Below are positions 1,425 through 16,545 of a DNA stretch of 64,000 bases, one piece after another. Source of the stretch: an uncultured Acidobacteriota bacterium (GTDB lineage Bacteria > Acidobacteriota > UBA6911); the NCBI GenBank assembly GCA_963827655.1, contig CAWHCF010000026.1, positions 128,001 to 192,000 of the forward strand, written 5' to 3'. Both the position numbers and the translations under genes were made by a program. The notes under the pieces are model-generated. The model did no database searches, was not told the DNA's origin, and saw only the letters and a list, made by a program, of their open reading frames with translations. Within the stretch, counting starts at the first letter, position 1; every line of letters starts with the position of its first letter.

Positions 1425-1546
1425 GCATTTCGCGTTGAGACTTCCGCGCAAGCCGAACGCGATGCGAATCAATCTTAGAATGGCTTCTCGCCGGAGGGAC
1501 GGGACGGGCCGGCATTGATTGGTTTCTTCGAACTTAAAGAATAAAG

Positions 1547-2170
1547 AATAGGAAATCGCTTTTCGGTGCCGGTGGGAGAATAGCTTAGGTTGGGCCCGTA
1601 GGATCTGGTGAAATGTCTCGGCGGGCTGGGTGAGAGGCCTGTTTGGGAGGGCGATAGGAGTGGGACGAGGGTGGAAGAGCGAGCTTGGGGCTTGAGGGTA
1701 ACTCCTCCGTCCCCATTCGAGTGCTCGACAGGGCACACCTTCCCTCGGTGGCGCTGGCCACGCCACGTGGTTGCTCGGAACAGGAGGCACCGGGAGCTTC
1801 ATCCGATCCGGTGGAACGGCGGGAGGGGATCGTCCCAGGCGGGGAAATCGACGTCATAGTGTAGAATTCTCGGAGGCGGAGTGGGGGGTGGGCGCTCGGG
1901 TTGATCCCAGAGCTTGAGGTGGCGCAGAATTCTTTCGATCACGGCAGGGTTTTCGATCAGGCTGATGATCTTCATGGGGCGCCCGCAGCGCGTGCAGGTC
2001 AACGGGTCGGCCTCATATACCTTCTTAATCAAGCGCGCCCAGGAACTCCTCATCCCGTGTGCAGCATCATCGTCCGCATCGCCCGAGGTCATCGGTCGCG
2101 GAGGGGCTGTTGTTTGTCAGGCGCGGCGGACGTTGGAAAACGCGCCGTAGTACCTGATGAGCTGTTCAAA
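1547..2170 (-). mobile_element. 3' part of an IS91-like (HUH/Y2) rolling-circle transposase gene plus oriIS-like end
   Basis: Minus strand FEQLIRYYGAFSNVRRA* then WARLIKKVYEADPLTCTRCGRPMKIISLIE..VIERILRHL (1799-2092); AAAAGCGATTTCCTATT at 1547-1563 resembles IS91-family oriIS ends. Confidence 0.75.
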
Positions 2171-2171
2171 T

Positions 2172-2597
2172 ACCCATCATAATGCCCATGTTCATGGGAT
2201 AGAGATCACCTATCCATATCATCCGCAGTGTGGCACCGAAGTGGTTGTGCTTCAGCGGCGCAAGCGCTTTGGTGAGGAAGTGTATGAGGTCATCGATGTA
2301 CATGGGGGCCACGGCGGAATTCCTGCATGGATGACAGAGCCCCGCTGGCGAGAACTCCAGGTTGCATCTCGGCCGAGAGTTTCCAGGGCTGTTCTTAATT
2401 TACTTCGTGGATTGCTTAATGCGCTGAACTCCGGTTCGAATGGGAGCGAACAACTTTCATTCGAAGGAGGGGGCGATGAAGGGAGCGAAGCAACGCGCGC
2501 TGCCACCGCACCAGACGGATTACAGGAAGAGAATCAGAGAAGAGAGACGGCCGGAACTGGTGCGCTTGCTGGCGGAACTTCTGATACAGGCATTTAA
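2172..2597 (+). CDS. Small accessory protein of LSR element (DUF5372/Y4bD-like, ITYPYHP motif); no internal start codon before the motif
   Basis: EITYPYHPQCG..IPAWMTEP..VSRAVLNLLRGLL; the only upstream ATG (2157) lies in the IS91 flank; family name from recall. Confidence 0.55.
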   Translation, partial: THHNAHVHGIEITYPYHPQCGTEVVVLQRRKRFGEEVYEVIDVHGGHGGIPAWMTEPRWRELQVASRPRVSRAVLNLLRGLLNALNSGSNGSEQLSFEGGGDEGSEATRAATAPDGLQEENQRRETAGTGALAGGTSDTGI

Positions 2598-2640
2598 GAG
2601 TGAAGCCGCCAGGCAAGGAGGTGCACTATGGAAAAGATAA
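2476..2640 (+). CDS. Small hypothetical protein of LSR element
   Basis: GGAGG SD; MKGAKQRALP..ELVRLLAELL; overlaps the LSR start; positional homologue of 9600-9773. Confidence 0.5.
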   Translation: MKGAKQRALPPHQTDYRKRIREERRPELVRLLAELLIQAFKSEAARQGGALWKR

Positions 2641-4480
2641 CGACGAATCATTTAAACCGTATCGCGTATGTGTATATCCGGCAGTCGACCCTGGCGCAGC
2701 TGCAGCGCAATGTGGAGAGCCGGCGGTGCAAGAACGGCTGGTGGAGCGGGCGTAGGCGTTCGGCTGGTCCAAGCCGCGGATTATTGATGATGATCTTGGA
2801 TGCACTGCCAGTGGCGTCGTGGAGCGCTCTGGTTTTGAGCGGCTTCTTGCCGCGGTATGCGCGGGGGAAGTGGGAGCGATTTTTGCCTTTGAAGCGTCAC
2901 GCCTGGCACGCAATGGCCGAGAATGGCATACGCTGCTGGAACTGTGCGCAGTGGTTGACACCGTGCTCATTGATACCGAGGCGGTGTATGACCCGAAGTT
3001 CACCAATGATCGGCTGCTCTTGGGGCTGAAAGGCACGTTAAGCGAACTTGAGCTCGGGTTGTTTCGCGCGCGTTCGCATGCGGCGATCCGAGAGAAGGCC
3101 AAGCGCGGGGAATTCTATGGCCTGGTAGCTGCGGGATACCGCAAGACCAGAGATGGGCGACTTGAAAAAGAACCCGACCTGCGGGTGCAGCGGGCGCTGG
3201 AGTTCTCTTTGATAAGTTCCCACAATTTGGCAGCGCACGGCAGCTCGTGCGCTGGCTCCGGGAGGAGCAGGTCAAGATCCCCCGAAAAGAACAGAGCACG
3301 GACGACAGCCCAATCTGTTGGCGCCTTCCCACCCAGGCAGCATTGACCTCGATGCGTCTTAGAGCACGGCCGTAAACGCGTCGTGGTCAGTGGTTGTTCC
3401 GACCCGGGCGAATGGGAGATAATCCTTCGGGACCATCACCCCGGCTACATCAGCTGGGAGCAATATGAGCGAAACGTGGAGATGCTCAGACAGAATGTCA
3501 ACATGAAGGGTTACATGAGGGCTGGCGGAATCCGGGGAGGAGCCTCGGTGTTTGCGGGGATACTGCGCTGTGAACAGTGTTGGCGTAAGGTGGTGCACTA
3601 TAGTGGCGTGCACTCGCGAAGTATCGCTATAGTTGCAGCACCAACTGTCGCAATGACGATGGCAAGCGCTGCCTGTCGTTTTCTGCCAATGCACTGGAGC
3701 GCACCCTGCTTGGGCAATTGCTGGAGACCGTGAGTCCTCTGGGGGTGGAAGCGGCGTTGAAGGCGGCGGAGATTTTGGCTGTCCAAGGTCATACCTTGAG
3801 AGAGCAGCGGGAACTTGAGCTTACACAAGCGCGCTACGAGAGTGAGCGGGCGCGGCAACAATATAACTCTGTAGATCCGGCGAACCGTCTTGTCGCAAGC
3901 GAACTGGAGCGGCGCTGGGATGAGGCGCTGCTGAGAGTTGCTTGTCTTGAAGAAGAATTACAAGCCGTTGTTGTTGAAGACGCCGTGTCCGCTGAGGAGC
4001 GTCAAGCGCTGCTGGCGCTCGGCCAAGATCTTGCCGGCGTATGGGACAACCCAGCCACCTCACCTGAAGTAAAGAAGAGAATTGCCAGGACACTGGTAAA
4101 AGAAATCGTGCTCTTCGACGAAGCACACAGCATTAAGGCCATCGTGCATTGGCAAGGCGGAGACCACACAAAAGTGCAGGTGCCGAGGCTCACCTATCGA
4201 GAGAGTGCCTCGCCTACCGACACCGATACAGTGGAGATCATTCGTGCGCTTGCCCGACAGATGGCGGATCGCTTCATCGCTCGGGTGCTTAATCGACTTA
4301 AGATACCTACGGCTAAAGGGTACACATGGAATGAACGAGTGTGTGCCATCCGGCACGGGTATCACATTGCTGTATACCAGGATGGGTGAACGGGAGGGCC
4401 GCGGTGACCTCAATATGCTTGAAGCAGCTAAGGAACTGGGAGTTGAGCGGCGCGTGATCAGCGAGCTGGTACGGTTTCGG
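2628..4480 (+). pseudogene. Large serine recombinase, multiply frameshifted and truncated
   Basis: AYVYIRQST, EASRLARN, NDRLLLGLKGTLSELEL, HHPGYISWE, GILRCEQC, DPANRLVASELERRW spread over several frames; internal deletion near 3350 and TGA at 4387. Confidence 0.85.
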
Positions 4481-4712
4481 CTGCCTGCTCACGGCGGTAA
4501 CATTTCGTCTCGCAAAAATGAAATTGATCGACCCGAAACTTTTTCGCGCAAGGGAAAGGTGTCTTAAAAGAGACGCCTGTTATGATTGAAACAGAGTACG
4601 ATCCTTCAATCACGTTTAGACCAAGGCTCCGAAGATTTTTTTCTTGATGTCTCGGATCGTGGTGTTTGGTGATTGAGTCTCGACTTACCACCTGAGGGGG
4701 CTTCATCCGCTC

Positions 4713-6629: not shown

Positions 6630-6720
6630 GAAATTCGGTGACAGGCACCAGATTGCGCGGCAAGACACCCAGTCGTTTGGCCGCTCTAACCGTGCACTCT
6701 GGTGCCTGTCACCGAATTTC
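6630..6720. repeat. Perfect 23-bp inverted repeat (REP/MITE-like hairpin) directly after the permease stop
   Basis: GAAATTCGGTGACAGGCACCAGA (6630-6652) and TCTGGTGCCTGTCACCGAATTTC (6698-6720). Confidence 0.85.
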
Positions 6721-8600: not shown

Positions 8601-9059
8601 ACGCTGCGGACAAGACAGTGATGGGCGCGGCTGCGCAAGCTCCTATGAGGTCACGGAGCACGGTCGGATCGAACGCCGCACCATAGGACCGGCAGTCGAC
8701 GGATCAACGCAAAGACACTCGTGAGAGGTCAATCCCAAACAGGAGTCAAACTGCCGGTCGCATGGCACAGCGATACGATCTTATTATCACTGTCCCATCA
8801 AGTGCCGTTGCGGCTGATGCTGCAGACGATCCCGAGCTCTGCCAGGGCAGTCCGGCACTGCGCGCTCGCGCACTAGGTCCCTCGGCCCGAATGATAGACG
8901 AGGCGGGCGTTTGGGTGGGATCCCAGAAGACTTTGTGGTAGGCTTTGCGGGTCCTCGGCCGCAGGAGGTGAACTGCGGCCCATGGCTCACCACTCTCTGC
9001 TGCTTGCTCGCGCTCAGAACGTTCCAGCGCAGTACGGGCATTGCTGCAGGCCGGATGCG

Positions 9060-9260
9060 GGCGCTTGGGTTTGCGAGCTCCCCGGTGTTTATCGTGCCCG
9101 CCACCCTGAAGCCTCCATTTTCTACCAGACATTCGAGCAGCACTTCGACAGTTACGTCCGCGCCTATGAGGAGCGCTTCGAGCCCCGCTCAGGACCACTG
9201 CGCCGCGTTGTGCCTGAGAGTGTCGAGCAGTTTCTTGCCTGCGGTCGTCTCCAGGGAGGG
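9060..9260 (+). pseudogene. 5' fragment of an IS91-like transposase (upstream of the zinc-binding domain)
   Basis: VYRARHPEASIFYQTFEQHFDSY..YEERFEPRSGPLRRVV..VEQFLACGRLQGG, ending in TAA where the LSR element starts. Confidence 0.75.
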
Positions 9261-9261
9261 T

Positions 9262-9543
9262 AAGCTGTCACGCACTAAGTATATCCTTCAGAATTCATCG
9301 CCGTATGTGAAGGTAACCCGGCGGCATCATCCCCTATACAACCAGGAACTCGAAGTTCTCAATGCCGACAAGCAAACACTGGTCCTGCGTCTTGCTGACG
9401 GTTCTCCAATGAAAATGCCCCGGGCATGGACCAACGCCGACGGCGGGGCACGGGTCGAGGAGCCTTCAATCTCCTCGGTATTCACCATCGAGGCGCTTCG
9501 CGAACTGATCGCTCTGGTGGGCGCTTTTCAGAATCGCGATTGA
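9262..9543 (+). CDS. Small accessory protein of LSR element (DUF5372/Y4bD-like, RRHHPL motif), frame open to the left end
   Basis: VKVTRRHHPLYNQELEVL..LADGSPMKMPRAWTNA..FTIEALRELIALV; GTG at 9307 has no recognisable SD. Confidence 0.65.
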   Translation, partial: KLSRTKYILQNSSPYVKVTRRHHPLYNQELEVLNADKQTLVLRLADGSPMKMPRAWTNADGGARVEEPSISSVFTIEALRELIALVGAFQNRD

Positions 9544-9599
9544 ACTCCTGACAGCGGCTATGTACGCATGGCTCCAGAAGCCCATACGTGGAGGAGCCC

Positions 9600-9773
9600 A
9601 TGCACCGACAAAGAACATTGCCGCTGGATGGTCAGGAATCTCTGGAGGCGCTTTGGCGGCGATTTCCCGAAGAAGGCCGCCGCAAGGTCATCGCAATCTA
9701 TGCGCGTCTGCTGGCCCTGGCCGTCCACGGCGAGAGGAAAAAGGAGAAGAGCAGTGACAAACTCAAAGATTGA
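9600..9773 (+). CDS. Small hypothetical protein of LSR element
   Basis: GGAGG SD then MHRQRTLPL..LWRRFPEEGRRKVIAIYARLL; overlaps the LSR start. Confidence 0.6.
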   Translation: MHRQRTLPLDGQESLEALWRRFPEEGRRKVIAIYARLLALAVHGERKKEKSSDKLKD

Positions 9774-12036
9774 TACCGGTACCAAGATCCGTTCCGAGCA
9801 TCTCCAACGGAAAGCTTTTGTATACATACGACAGTCTTCACTCAGGCAAGTTCGAGACCATGTCGAGGGCAGAGTGAGGCAATATCAAATGGTGGACTGG
9901 GCCGAGCGAACAGGTTGGCCCAAAGAGCGTATCGTCGTGATTGACGAAGACCAGGGCAAAAGCGCAGCCGTGGCCGAGGCCCGCATTGGATTCGGACAGT
10001 TGATCACCGCGGTGGGCCGAGGCGAGGGGGGAATCGTAATCAGCCTGGAAGTTTCCCGCCTGGCGCGCAACAGCCCGGATTGGCACCACCTGATCTACCT
10101 CAGTCGCTGGACCGATACGCTCATCACGGATGGGGAAACGATCTACGATCCCAAGTTGAGCGCCGACCGCATGGTCTTAGGGATTCGCGGGCAGGTGAGC
10201 GAGCTCGAGCTTGACCATTCGATCCAGCGCATGATCGACGCTCGCTGGAACAAAGCTCGCCGTGGTGAACTGATGACGATCCCACCCGCGGGGTACGATC
10301 TGGATGAGCTGAATGAGCTGGTTCTCACGGTCGATGAATCTGTCTCTCACGCCATCAAGACGGTGTTCGCAAAACTGGATGAGCTGGGGAGCGGGAGGCA
10401 GGTGTTTTTGTGGTGGAAGCAACAGGGGCTGAAGTATCCTGTGCGCCGGGTGGAGTTGCGCACGCATCCCGTCGTGTGGCTGGAGCCGAACTACGGCATG
10501 ATCCTGAGGACCCTGCACAATCCTATATATGCCGGAGTCTACGTCTTTGGCCGCATCGAGACCGTGCGCGAGCTCGACCAGGACAATCCCAACCGGCTTC
10601 GAGTGCGCAGGGTTCAACGGCGGAATCCATGGCCGGTGTTGATCGAAGATCATCACGCGGCTTACGTTTCCTTCAAGAAGTATTTGAAGAATCAAGAGCT
10701 GCTTGGGAACAACGCGATGATGAAGGCACGTGCTACCAACAATGCCGGTGCGGCGCGCGAGGGCGAAGCCTTGCTGCAGGGCCTGGTTCGATGCGGCCGT
10801 TGTGGGCGGCCGATGACGGTCGGTTACGGCGGCAATCGTGCGGGCAAGTCCAGCCGAACGATGCAATATCGCTGTCAGGAATCCCGCAGCCGTGTGGGAG
10901 AGAGGGGTTGCCAAACGATTGGAGGGAAGCGCATCGATGCGGCGGTGGTGCAGGCGTTTTTGGAGGCAACGGCTTCGGCAGGGATCGCAGCCGTGGGCCA
11001 GATGCAAGAGCAGTTGCGGGCTGAGAACGAAGCCAGCGAGCGTGCTTGGGCGCTGCAAGTAGAAAAGGCCGAATACGAGGCGAAGCGAGCCGAGAGGCAA
11101 TTCCACGCCGCTGAGCCCGAGAATCGGCTTGTGGCTAGAGAGCTGGAGAGGAGATGGAACGAACGGCTGACGGAACTGGAAGTCGTACGACAAAAGGCGC
11201 AGGCGGCGCACCGGAAAATTCTCTGGCTCAACGAGGAGGAAATGGCGCGAGCCAAACAGTTGGCGGAGAACCTCCAAGAGGTCTGGCGCAGTGAGACGAC
11301 GGCCAATCGGGACCGCAAACGTCTGCTCCGCTGCCTCATCGAAGAGGTCCAGCTCACTACGGAAGAGACACGTTATCTGGTGCGCATTATCTGGAAGGGT
11401 GGAGCGGTCACCGAGCGAGAGGTGGTTCGACACCCGGCGGGCAGCGCTTTTACCAAGACATCAGAGGATGACATCGAGCTGGTACGGCAACTGGCTCGAG
11501 AGTTTGAAGACGCTCAGATTGCCCGAATTTTGAATAAGCAAGGGCGGCGCACCGGATTCGGTAATCCTTTCACGCAGGCGAATGTGCTGTCGCTGCGCGG
11601 CCGCCACCAGATCCCAAAGTGTCGAGCTTATCGAGCCAAAGATCCGAAAGAGGGCCCGTTCACCGCCGACGAAGCTGCGGCGGAACTCGGCGTAGCCATG
11701 AGCACGATTCACCGCTGGCTGCGCGAAGGGGTTTTAGCCGGAGAGCAAATGACGCCCGGAGCGCCATGGAGAATCGTGCTCAGTGATGACGTGCGCCGTA
11801 AGCTTTCCGGTGGCAATGCTCCGGAAGGTTGGGCAGGTCTGACCGAAGCCGCCAGAAGACTGGGCTTGTCCAAATCCCACGTTGTCTATCTAATCAAGAC
11901 CGGCCGGCTTGAAGCGATGCAGGTTGCTTTCCGCACTCGGCGAAGTTGGAGGATCAACCTGGACTCAGCCACGTGTGGCCGGCAAGCGGGGATGTTTGAC
12001 GAGAAGGGAAATGATGATTCCAAGGACGCGCAGTAG
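9754..12036 (+). CDS. Large serine recombinase (catalytic, recombinase, Zn-ribbon, coiled coil, C-terminal HTH repeats)
   Basis: AFVYIRQSS, EVSRLARN, LLQGLVRCGRCG..YRC, PENRLVARELERRW, two C-terminal HTHs; GTG start after an AAGGAG SD. Confidence 0.92.
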   Translation: MTNSKIDTGTKIRSEHLQRKAFVYIRQSSLRQVRDHVEGRVRQYQMVDWAERTGWPKERIVVIDEDQGKSAAVAEARIGFGQLITAVGRGEGGIVISLEVSRLARNSPDWHHLIYLSRWTDTLITDGETIYDPKLSADRMVLGIRGQVSELELDHSIQRMIDARWNKARRGELMTIPPAGYDLDELNELVLTVDESVSHAIKTVFAKLDELGSGRQVFLWWKQQGLKYPVRRVELRTHPVVWLEPNYGMILRTLHNPIYAGVYVFGRIETVRELDQDNPNRLRVRRVQRRNPWPVLIEDHHAAYVSFKKYLKNQELLGNNAMMKARATNNAGAAREGEALLQGLVRCGRCGRPMTVGYGGNRAGKSSRTMQYRCQESRSRVGERGCQTIGGKRIDAAVVQAFLEATASAGIAAVGQMQEQLRAENEASERAWALQVEKAEYEAKRAERQFHAAEPENRLVARELERRWNERLTELEVVRQKAQAAHRKILWLNEEEMARAKQLAENLQEVWRSETTANRDRKRLLRCLIEEVQLTTEETRYLVRIIWKGGAVTEREVVRHPAGSAFTKTSEDDIELVRQLAREFEDAQIARILNKQGRRTGFGNPFTQANVLSLRGRHQIPKCRAYRAKDPKEGPFTADEAAAELGVAMSTIHRWLREGVLAGEQMTPGAPWRIVLSDDVRRKLSGGNAPEGWAGLTEAARRLGLSKSHVVYLIKTGRLEAMQVAFRTRRSWRINLDSATCGRQAGMFDEKGNDDSKDAQ

Positions 12037-12499
12037 GGTTGCCGCCGAAGGTCAAAGCAGGGCGGTGATCGGAGAAACACCTGTGGGCATGGCGCAGGAT
12101 ATTGTGAGCAGTTACGAGCGTCGGCTGGAAAAAACCACTCGATAAGGCTCTGAAAGTAGACAGGCGATTAGAGGCGATGCAGCCGAAGCCAGCCTTGGGA
12201 AACAGAGCGAAGCAACATTGGAAGACACCTTGTTGTCCGGCAGTTTGCGCCAGCCGATTTATCTGGGCATCGAGATTGCGATCCTAAAAGGGTATGCTCA
12301 ATTCCAGCGAGGTCACCGTGAGCAGGCAAACTCGACGTTACCTATTTGGTCAAAACTTTGTGGTGCGAATGAACTCGGAAACCAAACCACCTTGCAAAAC
12401 AGAAGAATCAATGTGAATGCAGGCGCTTGCAGCCGGCAAGTGGAGAGATTTTACCAAATGACAAACACCAATATCAGGGAGGCGTAGTATGCACGGGAC

Positions 12500-13169: not shown

Positions 13170-14546
13170 ATGCGCTCACGTAAACGGTTAGTACCCGTTA
13201 TGGCCCTTGTGGCCGCCGTATTCACCCAACTACCCAGTTCGCTGGATCCTAAGACTCAAGCCGCATTCGCGGCTCCGGCCGACGGCGACGCAGTCACCGT
13301 CTGGAACGCAAACGCCGGCGCGGCCGCCACTGCGGCATGCATAGCTCCTCTCGACAACCCACTCCACGAATCGCGTATGTACGCAATGATGCACGTAGCC
13401 ATCCACGATGCACTGAATGCTATCGATCGCCGGTCTCGTCCTTACACTTTCGACATGCAGGCGAGACCAGGCGCTTCTCCGGATGCCGCAGTTGCTGCGG
13501 CGGCACGAGATGTCCTGGTTCCGCTCATCGGTCAACTCCCTCTTGAGCTCGTCTCCCAGTCTTGCATCGATGCAGGCATTGCACGCGTCGAAGCCGACTA
13601 TACCGCGGCGCTTGCCGCCATCCGCGACAGTCCGGCCAAGGCGCAGGGTATCGCGGTGGGACAGGCCGCGGCGGCGGTGATCCTCGCTCTGAGAGCCGAG
13701 GACGGGGCGCAGTTGGACCAGTTTCTTAATCCCAGCTGCCCGCAGGATACTAATCCCGGCGAGTACCAGTGCACACCAGGTACCCCGTTCATCGCCTTTG
13801 AGGGATGGGAAAATGTTGACCCCTTCGTTCTGAATCACAGCTCACAGTTCCGTCCGGGGCCGCCCTACGCAGTGGACAAGAAGAAGTACACGGCTGACTT
13901 CAACGAAGTGAAATCTCTCGGCGGTGATGGCATGACCACTCCCAGCGCACGCACTGCCGACCAGACCGAAATCGCCCTCTACTGGTGGGAAAGCTCCCCG
14001 CTGAAGTGGAACCGAATTGCAAGAATCGTCTCCGGCCAGACCCGGCTCGACCTGTGGGAGAACGCGCGGCTATTCGGCCTGCTCAATTTGGCGCTTGCGG
14101 ATGGCTACATCGCCATGGTCTCTACCAAGAACCATTACAACTACTGGCGACCGGTCACCGCTATTCAGACCGGGGACACGGACGGCAATCCAGACACGAC
14201 CGGTGACCCGCGCTGGACACCGTTGCGCGGGACTCCTCCGAACCAGGACTACGCCTCGGGTCACTCAATCGAAGGGGGTGCGGGTGCTGAAGTGCTGAAG
14301 CAGTTCTTCGGCACCGACCGGATCAGCTTCCAGGACTGTAGCGTGACGCTACCTGCCGGTAGCACCTGCAGCGATAGGTCACCAAAGCTCCGCTCGTATA
14401 CCAGCTTCTCCCAGGCGGCAGTCGAGAATGCGTACTCGCGCATCCTCATTGGGTTCCACTTCCGCAAATCGATCGAAGAAGGGACCGATTACGGTCGAAA
14501 AATTGGCAAGCGTGCCGCCAATCTCTACCTCCGGCCTGTGCACTGA
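13170..14546 (+). CDS. Vanadium-dependent haloperoxidase / PAP2-superfamily secreted protein
   Basis: KNHYNYWRP, PPNQDYASGH and SRILIGFHF active-site motifs; signal-like N-terminus; GAAAGG SD. Confidence 0.85.
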   Translation: MRSRKRLVPVMALVAAVFTQLPSSLDPKTQAAFAAPADGDAVTVWNANAGAAATAACIAPLDNPLHESRMYAMMHVAIHDALNAIDRRSRPYTFDMQARPGASPDAAVAAAARDVLVPLIGQLPLELVSQSCIDAGIARVEADYTAALAAIRDSPAKAQGIAVGQAAAAVILALRAEDGAQLDQFLNPSCPQDTNPGEYQCTPGTPFIAFEGWENVDPFVLNHSSQFRPGPPYAVDKKKYTADFNEVKSLGGDGMTTPSARTADQTEIALYWWESSPLKWNRIARIVSGQTRLDLWENARLFGLLNLALADGYIAMVSTKNHYNYWRPVTAIQTGDTDGNPDTTGDPRWTPLRGTPPNQDYASGHSIEGGAGAEVLKQFFGTDRISFQDCSVTLPAGSTCSDRSPKLRSYTSFSQAAVENAYSRILIGFHFRKSIEEGTDYGRKIGKRAANLYLRPVH

Positions 14547-14699
14547 GTTGTGCGCGAGGTCTCACCATTCGGGGTGGGGTGTGGATGGCTTCGCTGACGA
14601 ACTGAATGGCAGCTTCTACTCACAACTCACCCAAACAAACTTTAGGCCCTCGCCTGAGAAATGAAAGGAGCACCACAATGAAACGGACTCAAAATCGCC
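14448..14699 (+). repeat. ~250-bp imperfect direct repeat, copy 1 (haloperoxidase 3' end, spacer, RBS, first codons of the next gene)
   Basis: Aligns end to end with 16292-16545. Confidence 0.95.
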
Positions 14700-16291: not shown

Positions 16292-16545
16292 ATTGGGTTC
16301 CACTTCCGCAAATCGATTGAAGAAGGAACCGACTACGGTCGAAAAATTGGCAAGCGTGCCGCCAATCGCTACCTCAGGCCTGTGCACTGAGTTGTGCGCG
16401 CGCTCTCACCATTCGGGGCGGGGTGTGGATGGCTTCGCTGACGAACTGAATGGCAGCTTCTACTCACAACTCACCAAAACAAACCTTAGGCCCTCGCCTG
16501 AGAAACGAAAGGAGCACCACAATGAAACGGACTATCAAAATTGCC
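16292..16545 (+). repeat. ~250-bp imperfect direct repeat, copy 2
   Basis: Aligns with 14448-14699; carries an orphan haloperoxidase C-terminus IGFHFRKSIEEG..RPVH*. Confidence 0.95.

What the first reader, a model, noticed from the sequence alone, without database searches (positions are those of the whole stretch)
9257..12045. Compact serine-recombinase element whose first gene may be completed only on the excised circle
Seen: a ~2.8-kb unit of HP-motif ORF, ~57-aa ORF and a 760-aa LSR that ends exactly at the right boundary. The HP-motif ORF has no SD-supported start and is open right to the left boundary. The same is true in the divergent copy A (no ATG/GTG/TTG between 2172 and the YHP motif). 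Seen: inside the last LSR codons, in another frame, is AAGGG-AA-ATG-ATG-ATT-CCA-AGG-ACG-CGC-AGT (12004-12034). Joining the ends at the shared GTA (12033-35 / 9260-62) gives MMIPRTRS-KLSRTKYILQ.. in frame and also a TAA stop for the LSR. Known: LSRs excise circles and usually need a directionality factor. Inference: the accessory gene is split by the att site, giving a recombination-state switch. Caveat: joining at the alternative AGGGT microhomology is out of frame, and GTG 9307 could be a weak start.
Basis: partly seen in the sequence, partly recalled or inferred. Interest (0 to 1): 0.78.

Follow-up and report, generated by a model that had tools for sequence, protein, structure and literature searches.

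The report
Serine-recombinase element with a split cofactor gene
This is a 2.8-kb mobile element whose small helper gene lacks a start codon while the element sits in the chromosome, and in its relatives that start is supplied by the element's other end once the two ends are joined, which looks like a built-in sensor of whether the element is inserted or excised.

Summary
The described parts are real. They are a start-less DUF5372 ORF (9259-9543), a 57-aa ORF and a 760-aa large serine recombinase (LSR, 9754-12036). The element sits in an IS91-type transposase gene, and uninterrupted copies of that gene in three soil metagenomes fix the left crossover at GG 9258-59.

In 15 of 15 related insertions (about 11 lineages) where the target gene is readable on both flanks, a Shine-Dalgarno plus start codon at the right end is in frame with the DUF5372 ORF after the ends are joined. 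In 7 of 14 elements examined, each a separate lineage, the ORF has no ATG/GTG/TTG before its conserved motif.

A complex model places DUF5372 on the LSR zinc ribbon and coiled-coil base, score 0.63 against a best control of 0.00. That is where recombination directionality factors bind.

For this copy the details differ. The GTA crossover is excluded. The family's start ATG reads AGG, and the right flank is not IS91. With the most likely right crossover (12050-51), ATG 12011/12014 is out of frame and only TTG 12039 is in frame. No circle was observed.

The parts
8912..9257 (+). Left flank and target: N-terminal remnant of an IS91-type transposase gene, ending in the codons for ..ACGRLQG before the crossover.
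   Evidence: 85% identical to G000:C38:185515-185170. Uninterrupted continuation (G-F-A-R-I-R-C-P-A-C coding) seen in metagenome contigs of X1, X3 and X6. Relatives L036, L046, L050, L039 and L043 are inserted at the same motif of other IS91 copies.
9258..9259 (.). Left crossover dinucleotide GG. It forms codon positions 1-2 of the Gly codon of the IS91 motif CGxLxxG-F.
   Evidence: Empty-site contigs match up to 9259 and differ from 9260 on. Same geometry in L043, L039 and L048, where IS91 is readable on both flanks.
9260..9285 (+). Left recombinase-binding arm (P'), overlapping the first codons of the DUF5372 frame. Contains the ..TCAC..ACTAAG.. motif.
   Evidence: Only 2 mismatches to L036 over about 26 nt. 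Aligns without gaps to the L038/L039/L043 arms. Assignment as a binding arm is inferred.
9259..9543 (+). DUF5372 ORF with no start of its own at the boundary. Stop is TGA 9541-43. Small beta-barrel plus C-terminal helix.
   Evidence: Pfam PF17342, E 8e-5. 275 representatives at E<=1e-3. AF2 mean pLDDT 82.9. KOW/SH3-like matches only, best E 0.039.
9307..9309 (+). GTG, the only canonical in-frame start inside the element before the HHP motif. No SD seen by eye. Possible internal start.
   Evidence: Conserved as GTG in L036, L046 and L050, but GTC in L038, L039 and L043.
9600..9773 (+). 57-aa ORF overlapping the LSR start. No family match. A small ORF with a similar W..LP...R..L..L pattern sits in the same place in relatives.
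9754..12036 (+). Large serine recombinase, 760 aa, GTG start behind AGGAG 9742-46, stop TAG 12034-36.
   Evidence: Resolvase, Recombinase, Zn_ribbon_recom and 2x HTH_17. 19-sequence alignment with invariant Y24, R26, Q27, S28.
12004..12016 (+). In frame with the DUF5372 ORF only if the right crossover is GG 12037-38.
12032..12038 (+). AGTAGGG, standing where relatives carry AGTATGG, which holds their start ATG. In this copy the ATG reads AGG.
   Evidence: alignment by eye from those outputs.
12039..12041 (+). TTG, two bases after the LSR stop. It is the only start-capable right-end codon in frame with DUF5372 if the right crossover is 12050-51.
12029..12049 (+). Probable right recombinase-binding arm (P). 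A 23-nt stretch ending at the GG aligns without gaps to L036 (16 of 23 identical) and ends ..CCGAA like ..CCGAC of L042.
   Evidence: Counted by hand. Inferred.
12050..12051 (.). Most likely right crossover dinucleotide GG (my estimate about 70%). Alternatives are GG 12037-38 or 12036-37.
   Evidence: Likeness of arms to L036 and L042. L036 homology runs to 12054. No empty site for this side.
2165..4606 (+). Copy A, a decayed second element. Parts: TT core 2165-66; start-less DUF5372 ORF to 2597; frameshifted LSR remnants 2628-4389; right-end ATG 4582 behind AAGAGA; TT core 4605-06. The ATG is in frame with the left ORF after joining.
   Evidence: Left homology to C10 ends at 2166. Frame test. 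Pfam PF17342, E 2e-4.
1534..2166 (-). Left flank of copy A: C-terminal part of another IS91-type transposase gene, cut next to its ..RYYG.. motif.
   Evidence: 88% identical to G000:C10:270400-269762, which continues uninterrupted.

Best explanation
Element B (9258-12051) belongs to a family of compact (2.4-3.5 kb) cut-and-paste elements moved by a large serine recombinase.

SHOWN:
- The family inserts at a 2-bp crossover inside codons for conserved motifs of genes, most of them genes of other mobile elements. Here the target is the CGxLxxG-F motif of IS91-type transposases.
- The first gene (DUF5372) begins at the left end without a start codon.
- The right end carries an outward-reading SD plus start codon, next to or overlapping the recombinase stop codon.
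- In every testable relative this start is in frame with the DUF5372 ORF once right and left ends are joined.

INFERRED:
- The recombinase excises the element as a circle, or makes a head-to-tail joint. Only then is full-length DUF5372 translated, coupled to recombinase translation.
- DUF5372 binds the recombinase at the zinc-ribbon/coiled-coil junction. This rests on a model only.
- Bound there, it acts as a directionality cofactor. I favour that it promotes insertion of the circle or blocks re-excision. A classical excision factor made only after excision would trap the circle.

For copy B itself the switch looks degraded. The family's ATG reads AGG, and the arm is one base longer than in relatives. 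Only TTG 12039 is in frame for the likeliest crossover. The right flank has also been exchanged.
For: (1) Frame test. Assuming only that the interrupted target ORF was continuous, 14 of 14 insertions plus L012 have the right-end start in frame with the DUF5372 ORF. That is 15 of 15, in about 11 lineages, where chance gives 1 in 3 each. The start-to-crossover and crossover-to-motif distances vary between lineages.

(2) L006 and L009 share 9-nt microhomologies at the two ends, both in register. L038 and copy A are also in frame.

(3) No in-frame ATG/GTG/TTG lies between the crossover and the HP motif in 7 of the 14 elements examined, each a different lineage (L006, L007, L015, L025, L028, L011, L009).

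(4) SD-like motifs stand before all 14 right-end starts examined. Two lineages use GTG in place of ATG, at the same spot in L031 and within a less alike motif in L017.

(5) Gene callers give this family inconsistent N-termini: lengths of 43-293 aa among the 150 best representatives.

(6) Empty-site contigs show that the target is restored or intact elsewhere.

(7) Complex model: ipSAE 0.62/0.66/0.63, best of 3 controls 0.00. The mark was reached by 58 of 80 solved complexes and 2 of 110 mismatched pairs. Runs agree in at least 74% of contacts, and partner pLDDT is at least 66. The interface is LSR 346-352, 405-421, 490-528 and 544-553 with DUF5372 22-26 (RHHPL) and 69-93. This is the DBD2/coiled-coil junction named as the RDF hotspot in PMC11795197 (passages read).
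Against: - No circle or joint was observed. The four runs laid were contigs, and none joined 12050 to 9258.
- The right-end ATG lies inside a motif (AGTATGG) that mirrors CCACACT in the left arm (13 of 23 positions symmetric in L038, by hand). Part of its conservation may therefore be recombinase binding.
- Some lineages have an in-frame GTG or TTG near the motif: L029, L031, the L038 group, L048, and B's GTG 9307.
- In several IS91 insertions the flank itself creates an in-frame ATG at the left junction, and gene callers start there (MG.. N-termini).
- The eight codons before GTG 9307 show only weak coding bias: pairwise differences of 58/42/79 at codon positions 1/2/3, against 197/82/399 in the domain.
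- For B and its closest full relative L036, the canonical start is lost or one base out of frame.
- No sigma-70-like promoter was found.
- The lineages share descent, so the 15 tests are not fully independent.
Confidence: 0.72

Rival explanations
1. The DUF5372 gene is an ordinary gene translated in the integrated state from an internal or non-canonical start (GTG 9307 here). The right-end SD/ATG is merely part of the recombinase-binding arm, or a leftover of translational coupling, and the shared frame has no function.
For: GTG 9307 is conserved in the closest relatives, and gene callers produce 78-aa proteins from it. The Pfam profile starts 2-3 residues after it. The N-terminal 15 residues are predicted disordered and weakly constrained. 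The ATG lies in a motif with dyad symmetry to the left arm (by hand).
Against: 15 of 15 in-frame joints across lineages with different arm lengths. 7 of the 14 elements examined lack any canonical start before the motif. The SD sits at proper spacing in all of them. In two lineages the start is GTG instead of ATG, which keeps start function but changes the DNA motif. No SD stands before GTG 9307 (by eye).
Confidence: 0.15
2. Copy B is a fossil. After a rearrangement of its right side and decay of its right arm it can no longer excise or complete the gene. What the reader saw (ATG-ATG near the end) is coincidence in this copy.
For: The right flank is not IS91. The family ATG reads AGG, and the arm spacing is 11 nt instead of 10 (by hand). 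The ATG 12011 frame stops at the joint for crossover 12050-51. Copy A beside it is clearly decayed. No second copy of B exists in the genome, nor in 136 other genomes of the class.
Against: All three ORFs of B are intact. B and L036 share the short right end but have different right flanks, so this form has moved or recombined since it arose. TTG 12039 is in frame, two bases after the LSR stop.
Confidence: 0.35
3. The outward-reading start at the right end serves to restart translation of the interrupted target gene, to soften the insertion, and has nothing to do with the left-end ORF.
For: Outward-reading signals at element ends are known from other insertion sequences (recalled, no call).
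Against: In 11 of 15 tested insertions the target gene is on the opposite strand. In the IS91-targeting clade the start's frame differs from the IS91 frame: the crossover sits at codon positions 3,1 against 1,2 (by hand). The right-end ORFs hit stops after 2-22 codons in several flanks.
Confidence: 0.03
4. The gene is completed not on a free circle but in head-to-tail tandem copies or replicative joints. The switch would then report copy arrangement rather than excision.
For: The joint sequence is the same in both cases, and nothing here tells them apart.
Against: No tandem copy was seen in any of the loci fetched. LSRs are known to excise circles (established knowledge; title of Lyras and Rood 2000, seen in the reference list of PMC13023037).
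Confidence: 0.08

Closest known systems
Tn4451/Tn4453 (TnpX) and Tn5397 (TndX): transposons moved by a large serine recombinase through a circle
   Same: An LSR does excision and insertion at a 2-bp crossover. Joining the ends creates an expression signal: the Tn4451 circle forms a promoter for tnpX (title of Lyras and Rood 2000, seen only as a reference entry in PMC13023037). [quoted passage not shown]
   Different: Here the joint completes an open reading frame (SD and start on one end, body on the other) of a separate small protein, rather than a promoter for the recombinase. The elements carry no cargo. DUF4368, common in the TndX-like clade, is not among the Pfam hits of this LSR. The targets are conserved coding motifs, mostly of other mobile elements.
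Integration-dependent immunity of mycobacteriophage BPs and relatives (attP inside the repressor gene)
   Same: The attachment site lies inside one of the element's own genes, so integrated and excised forms encode different products. This is a recombination-state switch (PMC4557955, start of abstract in the search listing).
   Different: That system uses a tyrosine integrase in a phage, and integration truncates the 3' end of a repressor (recalled). Here a serine recombinase element loses the 5' end (start codon and SD) of a recombinase-binding cofactor.
Recombination directionality factors (RDFs) of large serine integrases (phiC31 gp3, TG1, Bxb1 gp47, SPbeta SprB)
   Same: They are small, structurally unrelated proteins that bind the integrase at the DBD2(zinc)/coiled-coil junction (PMC11795197 passages; PMC5814800 title). 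The model puts DUF5372 on that same region.
   Different: Known RDFs are whole genes expressed from the prophage to trigger excision. DUF5372 would be made after the ends are joined, which suggests the opposite logic. There is no sequence or fold likeness to a known RDF. Its activity is untested.
Circle- or state-dependent promoters of ICEs and insertion sequences (Pcirc of ICEclc, P3'end of ICEKp1)
   Same: A signal at one end drives a gene at the other end only in the excised form (PMC13023037 discussion passage).
   Different: Those act at the level of transcription of the integrase gene. Here a translation start is supplied for a split cofactor gene. No promoter could be found.

Membership tests
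Large serine recombinases | N-terminal resolvase-type catalytic domain with the serine nucleophile | tested here: met
   PF00239, E 5e-14, residues 21-172. Invariant Y24, R26, Q27, S28 in 19 family members.
Large serine recombinases | Recombinase domain followed by a zinc beta-ribbon domain | tested here: met
   PF07508, E 6e-14 (197-318). PF13408, E 5e-10 (340-401). Invariant C347, C350, C374, C386.
Large serine recombinases | Coiled-coil inserted in the zinc domain | not tested
   Residues about 405-530 are heptad-rich by eye and form the modelled interface. No coiled-coil predictor was run.
Pfam DUF5372 (PF17342) | Match to the family profile above the gathering score | tested here: inconclusive
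   B scores 23.0 bits against a cut-off of 25. Copy A scores 21.7. 10 of the 30 close relatives carry a precomputed PF17342 hit.
RDFs of serine integrases (functional class) | Binds its integrase at the DBD2/coiled-coil junction | tested here: met
   By model only: ipSAE 0.63, best control 0.00, interface LSR 346-352/405-421/490-528/544-553. This is not a measurement.
RDFs of serine integrases (functional class) | Stimulates attL x attR and inhibits attP x attB | not testable with these tools
   Needs recombination assays.
TndX/TnpX-like multi-targeting LSR transposases | DUF4368 domain (in 63% of that clade, per 10.1101/2021.11.05.467528) | tested here: not met
   DUF4368 is not among the 11 Pfam families hit by the LSR.
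XisF (fdxN element excision recombinase) | NCBIfam equivalog score of at least 375 | tested here: not met
   62.8 bits.
IS607-family serine transposases | NCBIfam score of at least 110; small protein with an N-terminal HTH | tested here: not met
   20.7 bits, matching only a C-terminal HTH stretch.
IS91-family transposase (the interrupted target) | Zn_Tnp_IS91 and Y2_Tnp domains | tested here: met
   Met for the relatives' right flanks: L041 has PF14319 E 2e-14 and PF04986 E 5e-24. For B only the N-terminal remnant is present and Pfam is silent on it. The continuation is read from the empty-site contigs.

The most novel reading that the evidence does not exclude
DUF5372 is an inverse directionality factor. 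It is made only by the excised circle, because its start codon and ribosome-binding site lie on the other end of the element. It switches the recombinase from excision mode to insertion mode and is shut off again by insertion. This would give a self-timed, cargo-free serine-recombinase transposon, and whole lineages of it have specialised on conserved coding motifs. Most of those motifs lie in other mobile elements (IS91, IS21 IstA and IstB, IS3-like DDE transposases, IS66 TnpB, reverse transcriptases). One lies in the P-loop of a helicase-like ATPase.
Probability: 0.35. Interest if true: 0.9.

Novelty: new variant of a known kind. Interest (0 to 1): 0.74.

Why it matters
Three reasons.

First, state-dependent expression through end-joining is known at the level of promoters, and from phage repressor genes that contain attP. 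A recombinase cofactor gene whose translation start is physically separated from its body by the att site would be a new and very economical way for a mobile element to sense whether it is inserted or free.

Second, it gives DUF5372 a testable role. One search found 275 cluster representatives, and no paper holds the family's name. It also offers new LSR-cofactor pairs with short, readable att sites, which matters for genome engineering with serine integrases.

Third, the family shows recombinases specialised on conserved protein-coding motifs, mostly of other mobile elements. This is a clear case of parasites of parasites. It also explains why gene callers give this family inconsistent N-termini.

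Tried and rejected
Literature. 'DUF5372' gave 0 papers. y4bD, y4pK, y4bA and y4pH gave only unrelated hits; my link of DUF5372 to those Rhizobium ORF names is recalled and untested. Searches on serine recombinase with circular intermediate, split gene, start codon or 'across the junction' found no description of this arrangement.

Circle evidence. The four soil runs laid (X1, X2, X3, X6) are contigs only. They showed no joint between the right and left ends, and no alternative right flank. This says nothing about absence.

Promoters. No sigma-70-like site was found at the right end of L039 or anywhere in element B.

Fold search. Only KOW/SH3-like small barrels came up, with no E<=0.001, so it gives no functional lead.

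More copies of B. None was found in the own genome or in 136 other genomes of the class. The genome-contig scan gave one relative at 60%.

Microhomology alone is too noisy to place 2-bp crossovers (that script also stopped with an index error after 12 loci).

Dyad symmetry did not decide between B's candidate right crossovers (by hand).

The codon-position test of the segment before GTG 9307 was inconclusive. One search had a one-base offset error and is void.

Rows dropped from the frame test:
- L010: decayed, target unclear. The one 4-nt microhomology I saw was out of frame.
- L014, L018, L013: cut by contig ends.
- L016: the right flank is the start of another transposase gene.
- L017, L021: no DUF5372 ORF found upstream. 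L021 has one downstream.
- L019, L022: right end missing or LSR broken.
- L036 and B: the flanks come from different genes.
- L035, L042: left or right end incomplete or atypical.

I considered and rejected a crossover two bases right of GGGT (CA/AA/AG/CG), because it fails for the L041 and L043 flanks.

Full report
WHAT IS IN THE WINDOW.

Between 9258 and about 12051 lie three co-oriented ORFs:
- A frame open from far upstream (8818) to TGA 9543, which carries an HHP motif.
- A 57-aa ORF (ATG 9600..9773).
- A 760-aa ORF (GTG 9754..TAG 12036) behind AGGAG.

Pfam names the last one a large serine recombinase (LSR). It has Resolvase, Recombinase and Zn_ribbon_recom domains plus two C-terminal HTH_17 stretches. 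Pfam gives the first ORF a weak DUF5372 match, E 8e-5 at 23 bits against a cut-off of 25. NCBIfam places the LSR in no named equivalog: XisF 62.8 against 375, IS607 20.7 against 110.

A second copy (A, 2165-4606) has the same order of parts, but its LSR is broken into several frames.

BOUNDARIES AND TARGET.

The left flank of B (8912-9257) recurs at 85% identity on contig C38 of the same genome, and the likeness stops at 9257-9259.

Contigs from three soil metagenomes of three studies (X1, X3, X6) follow this flank to 9259. They then continue with a sequence that reads G-F-A-R-I-R-C-P-A-C in the flank's frame (table 7). This is the uninterrupted zinc-finger region of an IS91-type transposase, that is, an empty site.

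Sixteen metagenome relatives of B (59-92% LSR identity) show the same picture. L036, L046, L050, L039 and L043 sit at the same CGxLxxG codons of different IS91 copies. In L041, L043, L039, L042, L048 and L037 the right flank continues the IS91 zinc finger (Pfam Zn_Tnp_IS91 and Y2_Tnp for L041).

The left flank of copy A is the C-terminal part of another IS91-type gene on the opposite strand. It is 88% identical to an uninterrupted copy on C10, with likeness ending at 2166.

B's right flank is not the IS91 continuation. The same holds for copy A (nothing else in window 1-7000 matches the C10 copy) and for L036, whose right flank is an IS3-type rve gene. These three copies have flanks from different genes, most simply through later recombination between copies. 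That last point is inference.

THE FAMILY AND ITS ENDS.

An LSR search in 401 genomes of the phylum found 22 genomes with relatives, several with two copies. Copy pairs define complete elements:
- 2605 bp at 99.7% identity in G260.
- 3492 bp at 99.9% identity in G279.

Nearly all members carry, at or just after the LSR stop, an SD-like motif, about 6 nt, and then ATG (GTG in L031 and L017). This often reads ..GGTGCAGTATG.. and points out of the element 10-30 nt before the right boundary. The DUF5372 frame is open to the left boundary in each.

Different lineages sit in different conserved coding motifs (flanks confirmed by Pfam; L011 read by hand):
- the IstB_IS21 Walker A motif;
- the P-loop of an AAA_11/19/30 helicase-like ATPase;
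- rve of IS3-, IS21- and IS481-like transposases;
- TnpB_IS66;
- RVT_1 (reverse transcriptase);
- IS91 Y2_Tnp and Zn_Tnp.

THE DECISIVE TEST.

Whether the right-end start and the left-end ORF share a frame after joining depends only on the element length modulo 3. The same number is fixed by the frames of the interrupted target ORF on the two flanks. It therefore does not depend on where exactly I place the 2-bp crossover.

In 14 of 14 insertions where both flank frames could be located by peptide motifs, the two numbers agree. L012, added later, agrees too. That makes 15 of 15, from about 11 lineages. Eleven of the 15 targets lie on the opposite strand.

Further support:
- L006 and L009 share 9-nt microhomologies at both ends, in register.
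- L038, which has a non-IS91 target, is in frame through its CTG overlap (by hand).
- Copy A is in frame with its TT core.

Chance gives one in three per lineage. The lineages share descent, so the joint probability (about 6e-6 if they were independent) overstates the case. However, the distances from the start to the crossover and from the crossover to the HP motif differ between lineages. Keeping the frame across those differences needs selection.

In 7 of the 14 elements examined, each a separate lineage, there is no in-frame ATG/GTG/TTG between the crossover and the HP motif. Gene callers accordingly give the family lengths of 43-293 aa, with starts in the flank, at the junction, or inside the domain.

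WHAT SPEAKS AGAINST.

- The ATG lies inside a motif that mirrors the left arm, so DNA binding may add to its conservation.
- Some lineages do have a GTG or TTG close to the motif. In B that is GTG 9307, conserved in its nearest relatives.
- In IS91 targets ending ..AAT/CAT GG, the flank itself makes an in-frame ATG at the left junction.
- The eight codons before GTG 9307 show only weak coding bias.
- No circle was seen, and no promoter was found.

COPY B IN DETAIL.

In the nearest clade (L037, L038, L039, L041, L042, L043, L048) the geometry is constant: AGTATG, one further base, 10 more nt, the crossover (GG, or TG in L038), then the flank.

B and L036 lack the roughly 250-nt spacer that L037 and the L038 group have after the LSR stop. 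In B the motif reads AGTAGGG (12032-38). The stretch from there to GG 12050-51 aligns without gaps to L036 (16 of 23 identical) and ends like the arm of L042. It is one base longer than in the other relatives (by hand).

With the left crossover fixed at 9258, one search gives three cases:
- Right crossover 12050-51: the ATG 12011/12014 frame stops after 14 codons at the joint, and TTG 12039, two bases after the LSR stop, is in frame.
- Right crossover 12037-38: ATG 12011 is in frame.
- Right crossover 12036-37: nothing but GTG 9307 is in frame.

I rate these about 70, 12 and 12 in 100. In L036 the corresponding ATG is one base out of frame, and the in-frame codon at B's TTG position is CTG.

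So in this copy the switch is weakened or lost, although all three ORFs are intact.

WHAT DUF5372 MAY DO.

AF2 on 43 sequences gives a small four-to-five-strand barrel with a C-terminal helix (mean pLDDT 82.9) and a disordered N-terminal 15 residues. Foldseek finds only KOW/SH3-like barrels, best E 0.039.

The complex model of the LSR (19-row alignment) with DUF5372 (43 rows) scored 0.62, 0.66 and 0.63, against 0.00 for the best of three controls. That mark was reached by 58 of 80 solved complexes and 2 of 110 mismatched pairs. The runs agree in at least 74% of contacts, and the partner's pLDDT is at least 66. My own alignments were used, so these counts hold only roughly.

The invariant RHHPL touches the CxxC loop of the zinc ribbon (346-352). 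[quoted passage not shown] Passages of PMC11795197 and the title of PMC5814800 name this junction as the common binding site of directionality factors.

The model supports binding but does not show it.

A classical excision factor made only after excision would block re-insertion. I therefore favour a factor that promotes insertion or prevents re-excision. This is inference.

COMPARISON WITH WHAT IS KNOWN.

The closest systems are:
- TnpX/TndX transposons. The circle forms a promoter (title only). The TndX-like clade was read.
- Circle-specific promoters of ICEs (PMC13023037 passage).
- attP inside the repressor gene of phage BPs (PMC4557955, abstract start).
- RDFs.

None of them combines an LSR, a cofactor ORF split at its 5' end by the att site, and targeting of conserved coding motifs, mostly of other mobile elements. 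Five literature searches found no description of this.

VERDICT.

The exact joint proposed for this copy is wrong, and this copy is probably a weakened member. It is a new variant of a known kind.

Noticed in passing
L006-L031, L036-L048 (flanks); window 8912-9257 and 1534-2166: Different lineages of this LSR family are each inserted in codons for a conserved motif. The motifs are: IS91 CGxLxxG-F, HxH and RYYG/C-terminal CPxC; the IstB Walker A; IS21 IstA KGxVE; IS3 DNAxxES; IS3/IS481 YNxxRxH; IS66 TnpB; RT motifs; and the P-loop of a helicase-like ATPase. Most of these are genes of other mobile elements, so the family behaves as parasites of parasites.
   Followed up: partly
G000:C38:185170-185327 (locus L002 1344-1846, minus strand): The same IS91 N-terminal remnant as left of B ends at the same position on another contig. 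There it is followed by unrelated DNA encoding two AAA-type ATPases. Something else has broken or entered the same site.
   Followed up: partly
window 9258-9265 (loose ends at 9265 in X3 and X6): Metagenome contigs share B's left flank and the first 8 bases of the element and then diverge (AGCAACACACTCC..). This may be a different family member inserted at the same IS91 site.
   Followed up: no
window 11640-11970 (LSR residues about 630-740): The LSR carries two C-terminal excisionase/MerR-type HTH_17 stretches (TIGR01764 E 1e-12). This is unusual for large serine recombinases. Only part of this tail is shared by the shorter (about 690-aa) relatives.
   Followed up: no
L036, L046, L050, L035 left junctions; proteins P0008, P0013, P0019, P0026: Where the IS91 target reads ..AAT GG or ..CAT GG, insertion creates an in-frame ATG for the DUF5372 ORF exactly at the left junction. 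Gene callers start there (MG.. N-termini). It is unclear whether this is used.
   Followed up: partly
L011, L015, L030, L031 (between the DUF5372 ORF and the LSR): Some lineages carry an extra ORF of about 160-290 aa with a conserved ..PHPEAV..FFDP.D..QVKYEM.. stretch. This makes those elements about 3.5 kb long.
   Followed up: no
window 14448-14689 and 16292-16533: A 242-nt direct repeat, 95% identical, 1844 nt apart.
   Followed up: no
window 6630-6720: A 36-nt inverted repeat, 89% complementary, with a 19-nt loop.
   Followed up: no
Near-identical words of the 9000-12300 stretch occur in 20 public runs of 18 studies, almost all of them soil metagenomes. Only four runs were laid. The others are not evidence of habitat.
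   Followed up: partly
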